Part shown: positions 14,490 through 63,111 of the stretch, one piece after another
Layout: each line of letters opens with the position of its first letter
Numbering within the stretch: position 1 is the stretch's first letter
DNA from: Eledone cirrhosa
Taxonomy: Eukaryota
Direction: 5' to 3'
NCBI GenBank assembly: GCA_964016885.1
Contig: OZ024741.1
Span: 306,776,001-306,840,000, forward strand
Length of the DNA stretch: 64,000 bases
The notes under the pieces: generated by a model
Seen by the model: only the letters and a program-made list of their open reading frames with translations
What the model was told of the DNA's origin: nothing
Databases searched by the model: none
Program-made: the position numbers and the translations under genes

Positions 14490-14655
14490 CTTGAATTTTT
14501 GGGAAATGGTATTTGTTTTTGGTACATATTACAATTCCTTTAGTTTGACAACTGCATTGATTGAAGCTCTCTGCAGCTGCGTTAATCTGCCCTAGTACAC
14601 ATATTTTCCCATTGTAGTGACATTTTACAGAAATATTGTTCTGTGTTTAAAGGTT
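14490..14655 (-). pseudogene. Module J, decayed pseudo-exon (NNISVKCHYNGKICVLGQINAAAESFNQCSCQTKGIVICTKNKYHFPKIQ)
   Basis: Splice sites retained (gttcag / AAG|gtaata) but the length is 166 nt, so it shifts the frame; Cys2 is now Phe (TTC) and Cys6 is now Tyr (TAC). Confidence 0.8.
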
Positions 14656-16889: not shown

Positions 16890-17190
16890 ATTATGTGAGA
16901 TAAAGTGTTTACTGTGAAAATACATTAGTAAATATAGGGTAATGTAAATGTTATTTGAAATAAAGTGTTTACTGTGAAAATACATTAGTAAATATAGGGT
17001 AATGTAAATGTTATTTGAAATAAAGTGTTTACTGTGAAAATACATTAGTAAATATAGGGTAATGTAAATGTTATTTGAAATAAAGTGTTTACTGTGAAAA
17101 TACATTAGTAAATATAGAGTAATGAAAATGTTATGTGAGATAATGTGTTTACCGTGAAAATACATTAGTAAATATAGAGTAATGTAAATA
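16890..17190. repeat. 60-bp minisatellite, about 5 copies, inside a piggyBac-like MITE remnant
   Basis: Unit ttatttgaaataaagtgtttactgtgaaaatacattagtaaatatagggtaatgtaaatg; a single related copy lies in the element at 37771-37990. Confidence 0.9.
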
Positions 17191-32799: not shown

Positions 32800-35700
32800 A
32801 ATCTTGTTTGGCATCTATCGAATAATGTTACTCAAAAGACCATTCAGAGCTACCCAATTTTGGTCGCTTGTATTTGAAATCATATTCTTTCAGTCATTAC
32901 TCAAGATTCATGAGCATAAGTAAGGGTTGGCATGAATTCTGAATTGAAGATAGCAGGTTTGGCTTTTACACCTACTGCCCGTCTTCTGATGAACGAATGC
33001 TGAAGTTTGTGCATTACTGCACCAGCTCCTGCATTTCTTGCATTTAATTCAACCTCCAACCTTAAATCACTTGTGAACATGTTTCTGAGATACTCAAACT
33101 TCTCCACCTGCTTCAGTGGAACTCCATTCACATGTAGAGTGCACTGAACAAGCTTCTTTGAGAAGATAAGTGCCTCAGCCTTCAGATTTATCAGCAGACA
33201 GTGGGGTGAATACACCCCCCCTCACTTCATTAAACAGATCTCCTTCATCAAGCAGAGCTTCTGCTACCTTTTATGCCAATTTTATGCCTTTTATGACAAT
33301 TTGTCAAGATTTCTTTACATTAGCAACACCAGTAGGAAAAAGTAGGGGGAGCTGCTGTATATGGTTTATATGTATGCTTGTGTATGAGTGTATCATCATC
33401 ATCATCATCATCATCATCATTTTACGTCCGCTCTTCCCTGCTCACAAGGGTGGGACGGGTCTTATTCAGCACAGCATCTCTCCACTCGTCACGGTCTTTC
33501 ATCATCTCCACCGTGAGCTTCAACGATCTGAGGTCTGTTCTCACCATCTCCGCCCATGTTTTTCGTGGTCTACCTCTACCACGTCTTCCTTCAACTGGCA
33601 TTTCCTGGCACTTCTTCACCCATCGGTCATCCTCCATGCGCATTACATGCTCTAACAAAGTATTCATAATCTTGTTCCTCATACATTCACATTACTTATA
33701 AACATATATACATCACATCAATCTATTTTTTCTGTATGTTACTTATTTTTTATTTCCTTATGTTATGTCATTGAAGATAGCGAGAATGCAGAAGCTGGTG
33801 TATTACTGCACGAGCTCCTACTATTCTTGCATGTAATTTATCCTCTAGCCTTCCATCAGACATGAAAATGGCCCCCGTGATGAATTTCTCCACCTGCTTT
33901 AATGGAACTCCACCCAAATGTAGAGTGCATTGTGCAAGCTTTCTTGAGAGGACGAGTGTTTCAGTTTCCACAACACTGATTTTCATTACTGCCATGCAAC
34001 ACTTGACAGCAAACCTATCATGTGCATGCCAGAGATCACCTTCTGACGAATTAAGTAGTACCATGTTATCCATAAATTCCACCCAATTAATCTTCTACCC
34101 AACAGTCTTGATACCACTTCTGGCCTGGCTGCACATATCAATCTTGTCCATAAAGATTATGAACAGGAAAGGGAACAGTTAGCACCCTTGGTGCAGTCCA
34201 GCAACTGCATTGAATGGTTTTGATTTACCTCCATTTGTCCAAACATAAATACTAGAGTATTCATATAGAGACATCAGGGCACCAAGAAGCTGTCCGTCAA
34301 TACCAAACTCCTACAGAACCTTCCATAACAGGTTCCGTGGAATGTGCTCATATACCTGCTGTAGTATGAATATTTGGTCGACTGTGTTGCAGCCAGAATG
34401 AAAACCACACTGTAAGCTAGCTTTGATTCGACAATATCCTTAAATCTCTTTGTCAGACACTTAACATAGACTTTAACAGGAGACTTAACAAGGGATCCCT
34501 CCATAATTGGAGTAATCTCTCTTGTCTTCTATTTTGAATATTGGGATTATGACACCTGATTGCCACAGCTTAGATGCCTTTCCAAAGATTCAGGCCATCC
34601 AGCACACATGAGTCAGCGAGAGAACACCTTCTCTACATAAGGGTTTTAACATCTTGGGCTGAATTGCATCCCCAACAGCCTTGCCACATTTGAGCTCTTT
34701 AATTGCTTTTGTGACCTCAACATCAGAGATTAGTCATCACTCCCGGATGCACCTTGTGTATATCAGAAGATGGCATTGTGACTGGGATTAGGAGATCAGC
34801 AAAGTATTCTTCCCACCTCATGAGAATGTGCCTCTCTGAAGAGTGGAGAACTCCAAATGCATTCCAGATAGTAGGAGTGGTGGAGGGCTTCTTATTACAA
34901 AGTCGGCAGATGGTCTGCTAGAACACTTTATTTGCTGATCTGAAGTCGGATTCCAGCTTAACTCCAAAATTTTTCAATGTCTTAAATTTGGATGCTTTTA
35001 CTGTCTCTGCTGTGACTGATTGTGCCTGCTTGTACTGCAAGTGTAAGAAGGAGGACTTATTTCGAAGCCAAGCTTTTTAAGTCTCCTTCTTTGTTTGGAT
35101 GACATCTTTGACCTTCTGCTTGAACCAAGGAGTCCTCTTGCCACCCGGTGCCATGTCAAGCCACTATCAACCACAGCCATTAACAGCAAAAGCAAAAACT
35201 GGTGAGCTGAACAGTCCCCGCCCCATTTCAACATCCTCAATTTACTCAGGCAGTTCCCTCAATTTGGATGCAATAATATCCAAAACCCGTTCCTGACTTC
35301 CTTATCTGCCAGCACTTCCCACTTTATCCTATAGGTCAAGCTGGACCTGCAAGTTTTGTAGGATGTTTGGCTTTAGGTAGCCTCAGATTGCAGATAACTA
35401 AATGGTGATTTGTTGACAGTTCAGGCTCTCTTTTAACACAAACATCCAGCACAACATCAAAGAGATCAGAGACAATAACAAAATCAATTAATGAACACTG
35501 TCTCCTTTATACCATGTGTATTTATGGATGTCTGTGCTGGAAGAGGGTGTTCAGAATAGAGATCCTTTTACTAGAACAGAACACTAATATGTTCTTTCCA
35601 TTCGTATTTAGATCAGATTTGCAGTTTCTTCCAATCACTCTTTTCCATGTCAGGTGGTCAGTGCAAACATGTGCATTGAAGTTTCTCATTAGGCTATATG

Positions 35701-51146: not shown

Positions 51147-51715
51147 TAAAAAAAATCCAAATCACTTCATCTTTCTCTCTCACTCTCTCTCTCTATATAT
51201 AGTGTAGATATATCAGAAGTATTGACATTTGAATCTTTTAAAAGAAGTGAATCTTGAACTATGCAATAATATTTTTAATATATATTTATGAAATTTAGTA
51301 GATAAATTATGTAATATTCATTCATTATTTATTCAAAGTAATCCAACTTATTTTACAAACAGGATAAAAAATTATTTTCTGGATGCAGTCCCACACTCCT
51401 TTCCTTATTCTAGTTAAGATAATACAGATTCTATACTTAATAATAGAATCCATGTCACAATGAATTTAGGTACCTCAACCATTTAGCATATTTAACATAT
51501 AATAAATGTATTACAGAACAATGTTAGAATCATGATGAAGGTGTGGTACTGAGGAAACGACACACTATTTCAATCTTTTTACAGTTTAGAATCTCTGAAA
51601 ATTTTCCTTTAAAAATAAACAATGTTTTCTTATTTTTAAAGTAAACGTTTATCTACTTGTTTTCTTATGTAATGATAAAGAAGTTATTAATTTTTTAAAG
51701 TAAACGTTTATCTAC

Positions 51716-54022: not shown

Positions 54023-54187
54023 CTCGACTTGTTGTTGAAGAGCATACTTTTTTGGCACATGTTACCACTCCTTTTTCCTGGCAATTGCACTTATTACAAT
54101 TATCTGCAGATTGGAACGACTCCCCAATTGTATATGTTTTTTCTTGGTAAATACATACTTTAGACACTGTCTTCTCTACCGCAACCT
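54023..54187 (-). CDS. Module B exon (EVAVEKTVSKVCIYQEKTYTIGESFQSADNCNKCNCQEKGVVTCAKKVCSSTTSR)
   Basis: 165 nt, tttttcag acceptor, G|gtaaat donor, phase 1-1, six Cys. Confidence 0.9.
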
Positions 54188-54608
54188 CTGAAAAATTGTT
54201 TAAACCCGAATTCAAAAACATGTTTAATACACTGTCCTTTCCCCAAAGGAAAATATTTTGTTCAACTCATCACACATTATTATGTATAATATATAATGAT
54301 GAGAGAATATCATATCTAAAGTTCTCTCTTAAGTCAAGACAAGATAAAACACCAGAAAATCCCTTATTTAAATCTTTTTAGTGTCTCTAAAGTGCATCTA
54401 AAATAAGAGCTGTTAAAATGAAAATATTCCATATGAATGGATTACTGGGAAATGCTGGTCACAAGAAAAGTCATCAATTACATTTGATGAACAACTGAAA
54501 AACCGTGACACTTTCATTTAAACATAAACTATATATTTTAGTAAATCAGTGATACGGTTAACGGATAATTCTCAGTACATTGCTTCGAAATTAACATTTA
54601 CTATTCAC

Positions 54609-54730
54609 CTTGACTTGTAAAAGAAGGGCATCTGTTCATGGTACAGGTTATATTTCCTTTTGTCTTGCAATTGCACTCATTACATTTATCTACAGCTATG
54701 AATGTCTGTCCAATTGTATATGTTTTCCCA
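54609..54730 (-). CDS. Module A, 3' half (GKTYTIGQTFIAVDKCNECNCKTKGNITCTMNRCPSFTSQ)
   Basis: Cys2-Cys6 pattern intact; donor CAAG|gtgaat, phase 1. Confidence 0.8.
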
Positions 54731-57293
54731 TCTAAACTATAATAAAGTAAGGACTGCGAGACTGCATACGGTTTATTCTTTTAATCCAGTTAGTAAAATA
54801 AGTTGGATTACTTTGAATAAATAATGAATGAATGTTACATAACTTATGTACTAAATTTCGTAAACATTAATAATTTAAAATTGACTTCTTTTCAAAGTTT
54901 CATTCACATTTCTACACTTCCGGTATATCGTTGCCAACACCACCACTTCAACTACCATATATATAGAAAGAGAGAGCGTGTGATGAGAGAGATAGAGAGA
55001 TTATGATTTTCTACACGCTGACGCGTATGAGTGTGCACATACATACATCTCTATGTATGAGTATATAACTATAATCACGCAAACACAAACTTATAAAAAT
55101 AGACGCTCACAGACATATTTTCAGATAAATATACATACATTCACACATACTTTCACCCAAACATACATACATTCACACATATACATTTACACAAACACAT
55201 ACATAGTCATGATAGCAGCGTTCGGTGAATTGGAAATGGGAGGGTAAAACAAGTATAACGTTTTATTTATTCATTAACTCTTTATTTATTTATTAACTTT
55301 TTTTTAAAAACTCATTTCATATAATGGTTACAGAACGAAAACACTAACAAATATAATTGTTTCTACTTTTGGCACAAGGCCAGCAATTACCCCAGTGTAT
55401 TACTGGTACTTTATTTTATCGACTCCATAAGGATAAAAGGCATAGTTCACTTCAGTGGCATTTGAACTCAGACATTTGAACTCGGTGGCATTTGAACACA
55501 AAGCATGGCAACCGACCCTCTACTGATACTGCCAATCCACCACCCTTTTAATAATTGTTTCTACTTTTGGCACAAGGCCAGCAATTATCCCAGTGCATTA
55601 CTGGTACTTTATTTTATCAACCCCATAAGGATGAAAGGAAAAGTTAACCTCAACAGGATTTGAACTCAGATCGTAAAGGGACGTAAATATGTTGGAAAGC
55701 ATGGCGTCTGACCCTCTACCGATACTGCCAATTCAATATAATATATACAAAGGAAAGGGAAAGGAAAAAAAGAAAGAGAAAAATACACAAGCACATAATA
55801 CACACATCTTAGACCACATAGAACAAAATGCAGGCGAAAGAATTGAAAAACGAGCTGCTACTAGAGCAAAAGATAGCAATATAGCGAGAAGCACTGGGAA
55901 ACTTCTCTAATAATTTTTTAGGCAACCCAGCACAGTCGCAGCGTTACCTAGAGTGATGGCGACGCTGGAACAACCAAGTGCCCTCACAAGCATCACCAGT
56001 TACCTCTATTTGGTGAGCCGCCAGTGAAGATAAGAATCTCGCTGTCAGTAGCCCGACTCCCCCAAACGTTCGAATGCCACAGGCTGGATAATATAGTTAG
56101 CTGACAGAACACGGTATTTTAGGATTTTGTTTCATTCAGTTGTGGATGCTGTAGCCCTCGCCCTTACCTTTGCATCCAGAATGTGGGAAGTAGCAAAAAT
56201 TCACTAACTGTGACGTACTAGGTAAGGCACCTGCCTCTTGACCAGGAGCACAGAGTAAGACCGTCAAGTCTTTTCCCATCAATTGAGGACAACCCAGATG
56301 GTTCCAAAATTGAGGGGATGTTTGCCCGGGCCAAAGCTCTTGAGTGGTAATAGGACAGTGTGTGTATGTGCGCGCGCGTGAGTTTATCGGTGTTCTTAAA
56401 TTAGAGACACGTGTGTGTCACTGTTTTTAAGTTAGAGACAAATATGTGTGTATCCCTTTCCTTCCTTTTACACACACATACACATTGCATGATGGACGGG
56501 TGGACAGAAGTCCCTCAAATTTATATACATATGAATGGAGTTCTACTGAAGCAGTTAGAGAAGTTCAAGTATCTTGGAGCCGTGTTCAAGAGTGATGGAA
56601 TGCAGGAGGCTGAATTAAGTGCAAGAATTGCAGAAGCTGATGCAGTAATGTGCCAGCCTCAGCATTCAGCAATCAGATGAAGGGGAGTAGGTGTAAAAGC
56701 CAAACTCACTGTCTTCCTGATATTCCTGCCAACTCTTACTGAGGGTCATGAATCTTGAGTAATGACCAAAAGAATACAATTGCAAATAAAAGTGTCAGAA
56801 ATAGGATTCCTCCGAAGGGTCTTTGGAGTAATGTTACTCGATAAAGTGTATAGTTCAGAGACCAGAGAGTCACTCCTGGTAGAGCCGCTACTTCTCTGAA
56901 TTGAGAGATCACAACTCCGATATTATGAGCATGTGGTTAGAATGTCTCAGTAAAGAATCGCTGGACACATTTTACAGGCAAAACCAACCGGCAAGAGACC
57001 CAGGGGTAGACCCTGAGCAAGATAGTTGGATAATATCCATGAGCTTGGCTGGTCACGCTTTGGGATCCAGCTGGATCAGTTACAGATGTTTGCTACTGAC
57101 AGACTCCCTGGAAGGAGTGTTTGAGAAGGACTCTGTCCCCCACGACCCTCTCAGAAATAAGTGGGTGAAGAAGATATTGTCAATTTACTTTTCTATTTAC
57201 ATATATCTATATGCATATATATTTGAGTATAATACCAATATGCACACCACATAAGCTAGCAGAAAACCACCCGAAGGGCGGTTTTTCTGCCAG
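54731..57293 (+). mobile_element. Non-autonomous Helitron of the same family as 41629-51419, inserted in module A; carries SINEs (55354-55730) and a LINE fragment (56520-57175)
   Basis: 5' end TCTAAACTATAATAAAG..GACTGCAT..GTAAAATAAGTTGGATTACTTTGAATAAATAATGAATG matches the reverse complement of 51280-51419; 3' hairpin CTAGCAGAAAACCACCCGAAGGGCGGTTTTTCTGCCAG; A^T target. Confidence 0.9.
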
Positions 57294-57342
57294 TTGTAAT
57301 AGCAATTGATGATAACGTCAAGCTGATATATGGTAGTACTTT
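57294..57342 (-). CDS. Pacifastin/VWC-like repeat gene, module A, 5' half of an exon split by a Helitron (ESTTIYQLDVIINCYYN)
   Basis: Acceptor ttttttcag|AA, phase 1. Reads into Cys1-Y-Y and joins exactly, via codon AA^T, to 54730 when the insertion 54731-57293 is removed. The restored exon is 171 nt. Confidence 0.8.
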
Positions 57343-57768
57343 CTGAAAAAATGTTTTCTACTTAAAAAAAAGACAATTCATTGGAATCTTCGATACCATA
57401 ATTTATTTTTGGTGATTAAAGCATTGACTTGGTGTGAAAAGACCAAGTTTTGCACCTACAAAGTTCTTCTCTGAAGCACAAGCCTAAGTAAGGTGTTTTT
57501 CGTCTATACATATTAGACTGCTCCTTCCACACAACCAATGTTAACCAAGAGAAAGGCTAAGGATGATAGAGCTTATCATTAGTGATGTCACGACAAATTT
57601 CTGCAGCTGAGTGAACTAGAGCAACGTGAAATAAAGTGTCTTGCACAAGAATGCAACACATGACCTGGTAAAAGAATCAAATACCCAGCCTCAAGAATGT
57701 GGATCCAATGCTCTAAACACTAAGCCAGTCACCTTAATATATATAGATACATATATTTATACACACAA

Positions 57769-58065: not shown

Positions 58066-60015
58066 TCTATAATATAAAGCTGACGGCCGTATGTATGTAA
58101 CAAACTTTTCGCCAAACGGCTGGACCAAATAGCACCATGTTTGCACCATAGATGTAACTTTTTCCAAGTAAAAAAGGAGGGTATTCTTCTCTACTGAATT
58201 TTGTTAAAAGATTAAAGACATTATTTAAATATACACTTCTTTAAAATTTCAAATGTCAACACTTCCGGTTATACAACATTCCTCACTTTTTCTTAGTCTG
58301 TCTTTTTAGATAGATACATAGCTATAATGTCGCACCCTTATAATATGTCTCTGTATGCCTGGCTGTCTGCATTAGATAACGTTTTTCGAAATATTTACTT
58401 CTGCGTTCACAGATTTGATTTTTTTAGTTTCAGAAGATTCCGTTAAGGGTGAAAGCAGCTATTATTTGCTTAAACTTTAATCTGTATTAATTCGTGTACA
58501 GATAGTTTTGCATACACAAAAACAAAAACCTATTTATTTCACGAAAGCACAGACGGCTTATCGTCATTGTTACTGCCGATATGCCACCCAAAAAGTCCCA
58601 GCCTGGCCACAAGATCAGATTTTCCAGTAGAATAAATGTTACTAGATCAAGAGAGTCTGAAGATGATCAATATTTGTTTGCCTACAGTAATCAACATGTC
58701 ACAGATTTTATATCAGGTCAACAATGTTAACCTGTACATTAATTGTTCTGGTAAGTATATATAAATGTGTTTCATCAAACAGCGCTATCAACAGTTCAGT
58801 TCAGCTATCAATAGAAAGCTTCTCCATGCGCTTCCACATTAGATTTTTGTCGAACTGACCATTGATCGTTTAACAGTGCATCTTGAGCCCCAATCTTTCG
58901 GCACAACAAAATATTTGATTCCAAAATGGACTTTTCCAAAGGTATCTCCTTTAAAAGTAAATAGATTTGCCGTGTTTCAACCAAAGAATATGAATCAGAC
59001 ATACAACAGTTTCATTTGTCACGATATTTTCAGTTTTTTCTACAGATATTCGGTAAAACTGTAGAACTTCAGAGGTATCATTTTGCACAGCGCCTACTTG
59101 AGCTTGGAAGAGGGACAAGTGCTGGCGATGGACTCATTGATGTGGATCGAATTAGAATGGTCGTCCAGACAGAAGAAGAACTTTCATCCAAAGTCTTCCC
59201 ACGGCTGTCTGAGAATTTTACTTGCCGTGATTGGCTCTGTGAAAGAGCAATACTTGCACCAAGAAATGACAGTGTCAGAGACATCAACGATAGGCTGCTT
59301 AAGCAGATCCCCAGGCCTGTTTACACATACCAATCAATCGATTGTGTGGTTGACACAAATGTGGCAGTTCAATACCCAGTGGAATTTTTGAACGCTCTTG
59401 ATTTTCCAGGAGTTCCTCCACACAGGTTGGAGTTAAAGCTTGGTGCCCCTATCCTCCTGCTGCGAAATCTGGACCTACCAAAGCTCTGCAATGGCACACG
59501 ACTTGCAGTGAAGCAGATGCTGCGTCATGTCATTGAAGCCACAATCATGACTGGAGTTGGTAGGGGAGAAGATGTATTTATTCCTCGCATCCCGTCACTG
59601 CCAGCCGACTTACCCTTTGGGTTCAAGCGACTTCAGTTTCCAATAAGACTAAGCTTCGCAATTACCATCAACAAAGCTCAGGGTCAAACCCTACAAGTGG
59701 CTGGCCTTCATCTTGGAAAACCATGCTTCTCCTATGGTCATTTGTATGTAGGATGCTCTAGGGTGAACTCGCCAAACAATCTCTTCATCTTTGCTCCGGA
59801 GGGCCGAACAAAATATATTGTATACTCTGAGGCTCTAACAATGTAATTTAAATATTTTCTGTTACTTGCAATTTCCATTATGGTTGTACAAATTATTGTT
59901 TGTTAAAAAATGTGTTCTCTGTTCAGCCTTTATTGTTGTAACTATCAATTTTCTTGAACGTACTGGCTGCTGAACTGGGGAATCCTAAAAACTATTCAAA
60001 CCCAACATCAGAGCA
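58066..60015 (+). mobile_element. Internally deleted Helitron with the C-terminal half of a PIF1 helicase (ORF 59016-59846)
   Basis: TCTATAATATAAAG start; ERAILAPRN, LLRNL..LCNGTRL, FAITINKAQGQT and LYVGCSRV motifs. 3' end not found. Confidence 0.88.

Positions 60016-60647: not shown

Positions 60648-63111
<2,464 letters not shown>

What the first reader, a model, noticed from the sequence alone, without database searches (positions are those of the whole stretch)
54609..57342. Helitron inserted into a coding exon may be spliced out as a new intron
Seen: the 2563-bp Helitron 54731-57293 splits the Asn codon (AA^T) of module A. On the gene strand its 5' terminus reads ...ttatagtttag|A, giving an AG acceptor in phase 1 (exon 54609-54731, 123 nt). 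Its other end reads on in frame (N W Q K N R P S G|gtggtt), with a weak phase-1 GT donor at 57270 inside the terminal hairpin. Inference: a GT-AG intron at 54732-57270 would restore all six Cys with an 8-aa insertion (CYYNWQKNRPSDGKTY). Alternatively only the 3' half is used, giving a 5-Cys module with a free thiol, or the module is skipped. This would be a case of Helitron-driven intron gain.
Basis: partly seen in the sequence, partly recalled or inferred. Interest (0 to 1): 0.75.

Follow-up and report, generated by a model that had tools for sequence, protein, structure and literature searches.

The report
Helitron splits an octopus module exon
A 2.6-kb rolling-circle transposon sits backwards inside one exon of a giant repeat-module gene of an octopus-like animal; the broken module is likely just skipped, and the proposed rescue as a new intron is possible but unlikely because the needed splice donor is weak and is predicted to be buried in the transposon's own hairpin.

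Summary
Observation confirmed. A non-autonomous Helitron (54731-57293; TC start, A|T target, no duplication, hairpin; high-copy family) splits a 171-nt phase 1-1 exon in an octopod gene of at least 67 intact six-cysteine VWC/pacifastin-like modules. The copy is 3.4% from its family majority. The in-frame GT-AG pair (57270/54732) exists and would add 8 residues. For rescue: this copy lost the family's in-frame TAG and gained the GT, a pair seen in frame in 0 of 70 unbiased and 1 of 22 close copies; both halves are intact (neutral chance 0.20-0.34). Against: the donor scores 3.5 bits (2 of 26 real donors lower) and costs 16 kcal/mol to open (real donors 1.7-7.5); a better donor 82 nt on follows a stop; 4 other modules are already dead, and relatives' gene models skip modules freely. 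The acceptor is family-built (18 of 19 copies), so keeping only the 3' half is the main rival. Odds: skipped 0.48, 3' half 0.27, new intron 0.13, poison exon 0.12. No RNA could be tested. Helitron-derived introns are already in print; this scan noted similar unproven cases on other DNA, one in this genome.

The parts
57294..57342 (-). 5' half (49 nt) of module exon A, with Cys1; frame open
   Evidence: single copy in the assembly
57343..57357 (-). native splice acceptor of exon A (AG at 57344-57343), strong
   Evidence: 9.3 bits, 18 of 26 real acceptors lower
54731..57293 (+). non-autonomous Helitron, 2563 bp, antisense to the gene
57255..57293 (.). terminal hairpin of the element; -25.1 kcal/mol as RNA on the gene strand
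57290..57292 (-). first full codon inside the element: TGG here, TAG stop in the family (private change at 57291)
57269..57270 (-). candidate phase-1 GT donor, GC in most copies (CpG decay); weak, in the 3' arm of the hairpin
57187..57199 (-). in-frame TAA (57199-57197) and the best-scoring donor after the 5' half (GT at 57188-57187); use would give a 154-nt stop-carrying exon
55338..55750 (+). short dispersed repeats (SINE-like; label recalled) inside the element, part of it missing from many copies
56507..56845 (+). decayed coding fragment shared by family copies and by a repeat at 32814-33146 (LINE-like 3' end; label recalled, no Pfam hit)
54789..54795 (-). TACTAAC branch-point-like motif carried by the family, 59 nt before the terminal AG
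   Evidence: 18 of 19 other copies
54732..54779 (-). element-borne acceptor region: terminal AG 54733-54732 (phase 1) plus four competing AGs (exon starts 54736, 54753, 54761, 54777; phases 2, 0, 1, 0)
54609..54730 (-). 3' half (122 nt) of module exon A, Cys2-Cys6, frame open
54607..54608 (-). native donor of exon A, intact; 421-nt intron to the next module
   Evidence: 7.3 bits, 9 of 26 real donors lower
54023..54187 (-). next intact module exon (B), phase 1-1

Best explanation
A non-autonomous Helitron landed antisense inside one symmetrical module exon of a giant repeat-module gene, and the cell most likely skips the broken exon whole, which would keep the frame and cost one module out of about seventy. 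Shown: the insertion, its family, its age, the phase 1-1 design, the splice-like sites. Inferred: the 2.7-kb interrupted exon is too long to be defined; the 5' half finds no usable in-frame donor because the GT at 57270 is weak and folds into the element's hairpin as soon as it is made; the 3' half has only a crowded acceptor; so upstream exon joins exon B directly in most transcripts. The stop loss and the new GT are read as neutral decay.
For: Donor 57270: 3.5 bits, 2 of 26 real donors lower, 13% of 3559 random GTs as good; opening cost 16.2 kcal/mol against 1.7-7.5 for 26 of 26 real donors; still 10.7 when the transcript ends at the donor, 11.3 with all five stem A's unpaired. A 7-bp hairpin already masks the tau exon 10 donor (PMC6720520, passages). 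Acceptor 54731 has another AG 5 nt upstream; real acceptors have at least 12 nt in 25 of 25 with an upstream AG within 60 nt (26 tested). 4 of 71 other modules on this contig are already broken. Four modules come and go across 20 Octopus bimaculoides gene models. Each change alone is common: stop lost in 12 of 70, GT in 12 of 70 copies. Intact halves are expected by chance in 0.20-0.34 of neutral runs. No internal five-cysteine module in 26 octopod sequences; Cys1-Cys2 spacing of 26 in 0 of 807 modules.
Against: Both rescuing changes together and in frame: 0 of 70 unbiased copies, 1 of 22 close copies. All six cysteines, the frame and both native splice sites survive, 3-5 times likelier under constraint. 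The 3' half is the best match to an octopus module among window modules (26 of 34 residues, others 16-24). The element acceptor scores in the real range (6.9 bits, 7 of 26 lower, top 2.4% of AGs) and the native donor faces a short 421-nt intron, so the 3' half may well be kept. The splice model rests on 26 paralogous exons only; the relatives' isoforms are gene models whose read support I did not see.
Confidence: 0.48

Rival explanations
1. Only the 3' half is kept: the family's built-in antisense acceptor (AG one base from the terminus) pairs with the native donor and gives a 123-nt in-frame exon, a five-cysteine module whose Cys4 would lack its partner (pairing recalled from pacifastin/VWC). 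The element is then not an intron of its own but the donor of a new 3' splice site.
For: Acceptor 6.9 bits, within real range; TTTAGA end and TACTAAC each in 18 of 19 copies; native donor intact, next intron 421 nt; exon length typical; 3' half well kept.
Against: Four competing AGs within 50 nt, three of them out of phase; the perfect branch motif is 59 nt away and fits the upstream AGs better; 8 other AG-GT pairs of equal score lie in the window outside the intact modules; no five-cysteine internal module in 26 octopod sequences; intact 3' half has neutral chance 0.28-0.45.
Confidence: 0.27
2. One reading: the element became a 2539-nt GT-AG intron after two point changes in its end, and both halves are joined with 8 extra residues in the first beta-turn. 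Weaker in-frame pairs (57235/54753, 57200/54736) are variants that would add a longer, hydrophobic insert.
For: Stop loss plus in-frame GT in 0 of 70 and 1 of 22 other copies; both halves and both native sites intact; predicted U1 pairing -6.7 kcal/mol, near the median of real donors; the break lies in the predicted turn between strands 10-13 and 16-19, and one homologue has a 14-residue insert there (P0113); Helitron-derived and codon-adding introners are in print (PMC12130899, PMC9860276, passages).
Against: Donor weak and buried, 16.2 vs 1.7-7.5 kcal/mol; the two changes only turn pairs into G-U and loosen it from 18.1 to 16.2; a stronger open donor at 57188 follows a stop; 5 changes in the last 99 called columns against 3.4% overall is no excess; the 5' exon would be only 72 nt; losing a module looks cheap, so selection for a two-step rescue would be weak.
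Confidence: 0.13
3. The strong native acceptor pairs with the donor at 57188 and makes a 154-nt stop-carrying (poison) exon, or transcripts end at poly(A) signals in the element; the insertion then lowers the gene's output or cuts the protein short.
For: Acceptor 9.3 and donor 6.3 bits, donor open (2.9 kcal/mol), exon length typical; only 2 other such pairs in the window; 6 AATAAA in the element on the gene strand against 1.0 per kb.
Against: 67 intact modules downstream with intact splice sites argue that full-length message is made; such an allele should be purged, yet this copy is 3.4% old.
Confidence: 0.12

Closest known systems
Non-autonomous canonical Helitrons (hallmarks as stated for Helibat1/Helraiser, PMC4778049, passages)
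   Same: 5' TC, family 3' CTAG, insertion between A and T, no target duplication, GC hairpin 12 nt before the 3' end
   Different: No RepHel frame; this copy ends CCAG; the stem runs on to the very terminus; it carries repeat cargo and sits in a coding exon
Introners, including Helitron-derived ones (PMC12130899, passages: about 1% of classified families, example Suillus subalutaceus family 5) and codon-adding ones of Aureococcus (PMC9860276, passages)
   Same: Exonic insertion; element carries a 3' splice signal; removal would add codons in frame
   Different: Introners splice on arrival and in many copies (5 to over 2000; median length 30-654 nt). This family arrives with an in-frame stop and no GT donor, is 2.5 kb, and one exonic copy is known; rescue needs later mutations
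Octopus 'kielin/chordin-like' VWFC proteins (XP_052827937-939, CAI9730160)
   Same: Tandem six-cysteine modules with 18-residue Cys1-Cys2 spacing; same order of recognisable modules; one module per phase 1-1 exon here
   Different: Module number and identity differ by lineage; no one-to-one orthologue of module A; no split or five-cysteine internal module in those models
Tau exon 10 splice-site hairpin (PMC6720520, abstract and passages)
   Same: A stem that holds the 5' splice site and masks it from U1
   Different: Tau's stem has about 7 pairs and tunes inclusion; this one has about 17 pairs and is a transposon end

Membership tests
Helitron (non-autonomous) | 5' terminus TC | tested here: met
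   (18 of 19 other copies)
Helitron (non-autonomous) | 3' terminus CTRR | tested here: met
   family CTAG in 55 of 70; this copy has decayed to CCAG
Helitron (non-autonomous) | subterminal hairpin about 11 nt from the 3' end | tested here: met
   GC core ends 12 nt before the end
Helitron (non-autonomous) | insertion between A and T without target duplication | tested here: met
   17 of 18 5' flanks A; 69 of 70 3' flanks T
Helitron (non-autonomous) | autonomous RepHel partner with the same ends | tested here: inconclusive
   0 of 4 internal frames hit Pfam; a Pif1-coding neighbour shares a diverged 5' stretch (score 75, 200 shuffles max 65); no search for a full partner
Introner | element is spliced out of the mRNA | not testable with these tools
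   no RNA run available
Introner | both splice sites present or co-opted at insertion | tested here: not met
   family end gives an in-frame stop in 58 of 70 copies and no GT at this site in 58 of 70; acceptor is family-borne
Introner | many similar introns at independent coding sites | tested here: inconclusive
   short flanks printed are mostly AT-rich and look non-coding; no annotation, not tested systematically
Pacifastin inhibitor domain (PF05375) | six cysteines with Cys1-Cys2 spacing 9-12 (pattern recalled) | tested here: not met
   spacing 18; 10 of 11 modules hit PF05375 at E up to 0.1, module B and the 3' half score below the curated cut-off
Pacifastin inhibitor domain (PF05375) | serine-protease inhibition through the Cys5-Cys6 loop | not testable with these tools
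   loop length fits; no assay
VWC domain (PF00093) | ten cysteines in two subdomains (recalled) | tested here: not met
   six cysteines only; 8 of 11 hit PF00093 weakly
VWC domain (PF00093) | fibronectin-type-I-like fold of the first subdomain | tested here: inconclusive
   model pLDDT 76.6; top PDB rows are FnI and VWC, none at E up to 0.001

The most novel reading that the evidence does not exclude
A Helitron that at first broke an exon was turned into a working 2.5-kb intron afterwards, by two point changes in its own terminal hairpin (stop to Trp, GC to GT) together with a branch point and AG that the family already carries: intron gain in steps, caught in a cephalopod, with the donor used from inside a strong hairpin, perhaps loosened by the RNA editing for which these animals are known.
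Probability: 0.13. Interest if true: 0.6.

Novelty: new member of a known kind. Interest (0 to 1): 0.3.

Why it matters
As read here it is an ordinary transposon hit in a dispensable module exon. It still offers a clean test: one RT-PCR across the site tells skipping, half-exon use and intron gain apart. If the intron is real, it would show that a non-introner Helitron can become an intron by later mutation, and that a donor inside a 25 kcal/mol stem can be used. The family's built-in antisense branch motif and AG suggest that its many copies often offer new 3' splice sites in octopod genes.

Tried and rejected
Empty allele: none seen. A 373-nt contig spans the right junction without differences in 3 of 3 runs of one sample, which may be the assembly's source; no joint or loose end at 54730 in 2 of 2 contig runs, but no listed piece spans the left junction; 3 of 3 RAD runs give no usable cover. 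No second copy of either half in the assembly. No protein of this species came up: best identity to module B 54% among 25 hits; the 150 representatives gave no match to the read-through peptide. First splice matrix (52 acceptors) was dominated by near-identical distal paralogues and scored the element acceptor -3.95; it was replaced by a 26-exon set (2 doubtful acceptors and most distal copies left out), which scores it 6.9: the acceptor's rank depends on the training set. One search's pattern found only 6 copies; one search's found 210, of which 90 were read, 15 lacked a full end and 5 were duplicates. Idea that module A is the gene's first module: rejected, the N-terminal-type modules lie on unplaced contigs C810 and C1469, so its upstream neighbour exon is unknown; 6 of 85 upstream frames tested (of 179) hit Pfam, all transposon domains. 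RNA editing as a way to free the donor: opening cost stays 11.3 kcal/mol. Literature: helitron+intron gain+splice site (11 papers), helitron+exonization etc., helitron+cephalopod+exon (13), helitron+spliced out+insertion+exon (18), pacifastin+octopus (8): listings showed no report of this locus or of a cephalopod Helitron intron; supplements of the introner papers were not read and could hold one.

Full report
Setting. The window is G000:C2:306776001-306840000 of a 3.0-Gb genome. The minus strand holds single-exon, phase 1-1, six-cysteine modules. In 624 kb around the window there are 67 intact ones and 4 broken ones besides module A (at window positions 14655, 6602, -3478, -191729). The closest proteins are Octopus 'VWFC domain-containing' or 'kielin/chordin-like' proteins, so the animal is octopus-like. 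Pfam gives weak pacifastin (10 of 11 modules) and VWC (8 of 11) hits at E up to 0.1; a model of module B (pLDDT 76.6) resembles fibronectin type I and VWC folds, none at E up to 0.001. The modules fail the recalled cysteine patterns of both families (spacing 18, six cysteines), so I call them VWC/pacifastin-like. Module A is the 5'-most module on this contig; none lies in the 460 kb upstream that I read, where a 200-N gap sits at +390,855 and the 6 of 85 tested frames that hit Pfam are all transposon domains. The modules that start the Octopus bimaculoides protein have their matches on unplaced contigs C810 and C1469. Module A is therefore likely internal, and its upstream neighbour is not known.

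The insertion. 54731-57293 starts TC, ends CCAG and lies between A and T with no duplication. Both ends are high-copy (40 scored of 2483 and of 1533 candidates). 17 of 18 other intact 5' ends follow A. Of 90 3' ends picked by an upstream motif (of 210 matches), 15 lacked a full end and 5 were duplicates; of the 70 left, 55 end CTAG and 69 are followed by T. These are the hallmarks given for bat Helitrons (PMC4778049, passages). No internal frame hit Pfam (0 of 4), so it is non-autonomous. Against the majority of 38 other loci this copy differs at 77 of 2282 columns (3.4%; other copies 2.6-6.7%): 2.8% outside CpG, 16.9% at CpG, 4 single-base indels. No empty allele was seen, but only one DNA sample covers the site.

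Removing 57270-54732 leaves 24 element bases, 8 codons, in the predicted turn between the first two strands. In the family the end reads as an in-frame TAG; this copy has TGG. And the GT is GC in most copies. Stop loss occurs in 12 of 70 unbiased copies, the GT in 12 of 70 (5 in frame), both in 1 of 70, both in frame in 0 of 70; among the closest copies the counts are 4, 8 and 1 of 22 (25 examined). So the pair has a chance of about 1-6%. Both halves keep their frame, six cysteines and native AG and GT; under neutral decay at the element's rate that happens in 0.34 of 20,000 runs, or 0.20 if seven more conserved residues are required. The 3' half matches an O. vulgaris module at 26 of 34 residues, the 11 intact window modules at 16-24.

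Against it stands the donor. In matrices from 26 module exons it scores 3.5 bits: 2 of 26 real donors are lower and 13% of random GTs are as good. Predicted U1 pairing is ordinary (-6.7 kcal/mol), but the site lies in the 3' arm of a -25.1 kcal/mol hairpin. Opening it costs 16.2 kcal/mol, against 1.7-7.5 for all 26 real donors; 10.7 even when the transcript ends at the donor; 18.1 with the family bases, so the two changes barely loosen it; 11.3 if all five stem A's were unpaired, a generous stand-in for RNA editing. A 7-pair stem is enough to mask the tau exon 10 donor (PMC6720520, abstract and passages). The best donor after the 5' half is at 57188 (6.3 bits, open) and lies behind the stop at 57199-57197. 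Two other in-frame pairs (57235/54753, 57200/54736) are weak at both ends, and show that some in-frame GT-AG pair is easy to find once the stop is gone. The last 99 called columns hold 5 changes, no excess over 3.4%. A Cys1-Cys2 spacing of 26 occurs in 0 of 807 homologous modules, though one has a 14-residue insert in this turn.

The acceptor is better: 6.9 bits, 7 of 26 real ones lower, top 2.4% of AGs (a matrix dominated by distal paralogues gave -3.95). It is a family trait: TTTAGA at the end and a TACTAAC 59 nt upstream are each in 18 of 19 copies. With the native donor (7.3 bits) and a 421-nt next intron, a 123-nt exon is plausible. But another AG lies 5 nt upstream and three more within 50 nt, while real acceptors have at least 12 AG-free bases (25 of 25); 8 other pairs in the window score as well; and none of 26 octopod sequences has an internal five-cysteine module.

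Skipping is cheap. Every module exon is phase 1-1, four others are dead, and four modules are independently present or absent across 20 O. bimaculoides gene models (read support not seen). My odds, by judgement from these counts: skipped 0.48, 3' half kept 0.27, new intron 0.13, poison exon or early end 0.12. Splicing is inferred throughout; no RNA could be examined.

Known kinds. Helitron-derived introners are in print, about 1% of classified families (PMC12130899, passages), and some introners add codons (PMC9860276, passages). This family fails the introner test of carrying or co-opting both sites on arrival. In search listings I saw no report of this locus or of a cephalopod Helitron intron; supplements were not read. 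Pacifastins are named among octopus salivary-gland components (PMC7693380, passages); nothing ties this gene to them beyond the weak Pfam hit. Earlier notes of this scan describe similar unproven cases on other DNA, among them an antisense Helitron offering an acceptor in this genome (e1-10328393); I did not check those loci. Verdict: real insertion, ordinary most likely outcome, one cheap test away from a 13% chance of stepwise intron gain. Interest 0.3.

Noticed in passing
window 58965-59846 (+): 293-codon open frame with a Pif1 2B domain (E 1.4e-17): a second, RepHel-derived Helitron piece 1.7 kb from the first; its stretch 58135-58273 resembles the element's 5' part.
   Followed up: partly
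window 54789-54795 and 54732-54779 (-); 18 of 19 other copies: The Helitron family carries an antisense TACTAAC and a terminal AG, a ready-made 3' splice signal in a family with at least hundreds of copies.
   Followed up: partly
G000:C2 about 306.55-306.83 Mb: Giant array of at least 67 intact single-module exons; over 40 distal ones are near-identical 135-nt copies, many with tandem CAGCAG acceptors. Further hits lie beyond the stretch read. Could be a cassette or mutually exclusive array.
   Followed up: partly
G000:C1469 and C810: Unplaced contigs hold the modules that begin the O. bimaculoides protein; the gene's 5' part seems missing from C2.
   Followed up: partly
window 14655-14489 and 6602-6436 (-); -3478 and -191729 outside the window: Four dead modules: stops or lost cysteines; the one at -3478 has lost its acceptor and Cys1 at nearly the same point where module A is split.
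   Followed up: partly
window 51183-51370: Piece related to the element's 5' part in the opposite orientation.
   Followed up: no
window 51880-51716 and 39671-39507 (-): Two module exons are close duplicates, a recent internal duplication.
   Followed up: no
window 16891-17189: Five copies of a 60-nt tandem unit, 96% alike.
   Followed up: no
window 61046-62998 (-): Long open frames (524 and 126 codons) of a dispersed LINE-like repeat with several copies in the window (label recalled).
   Followed up: no
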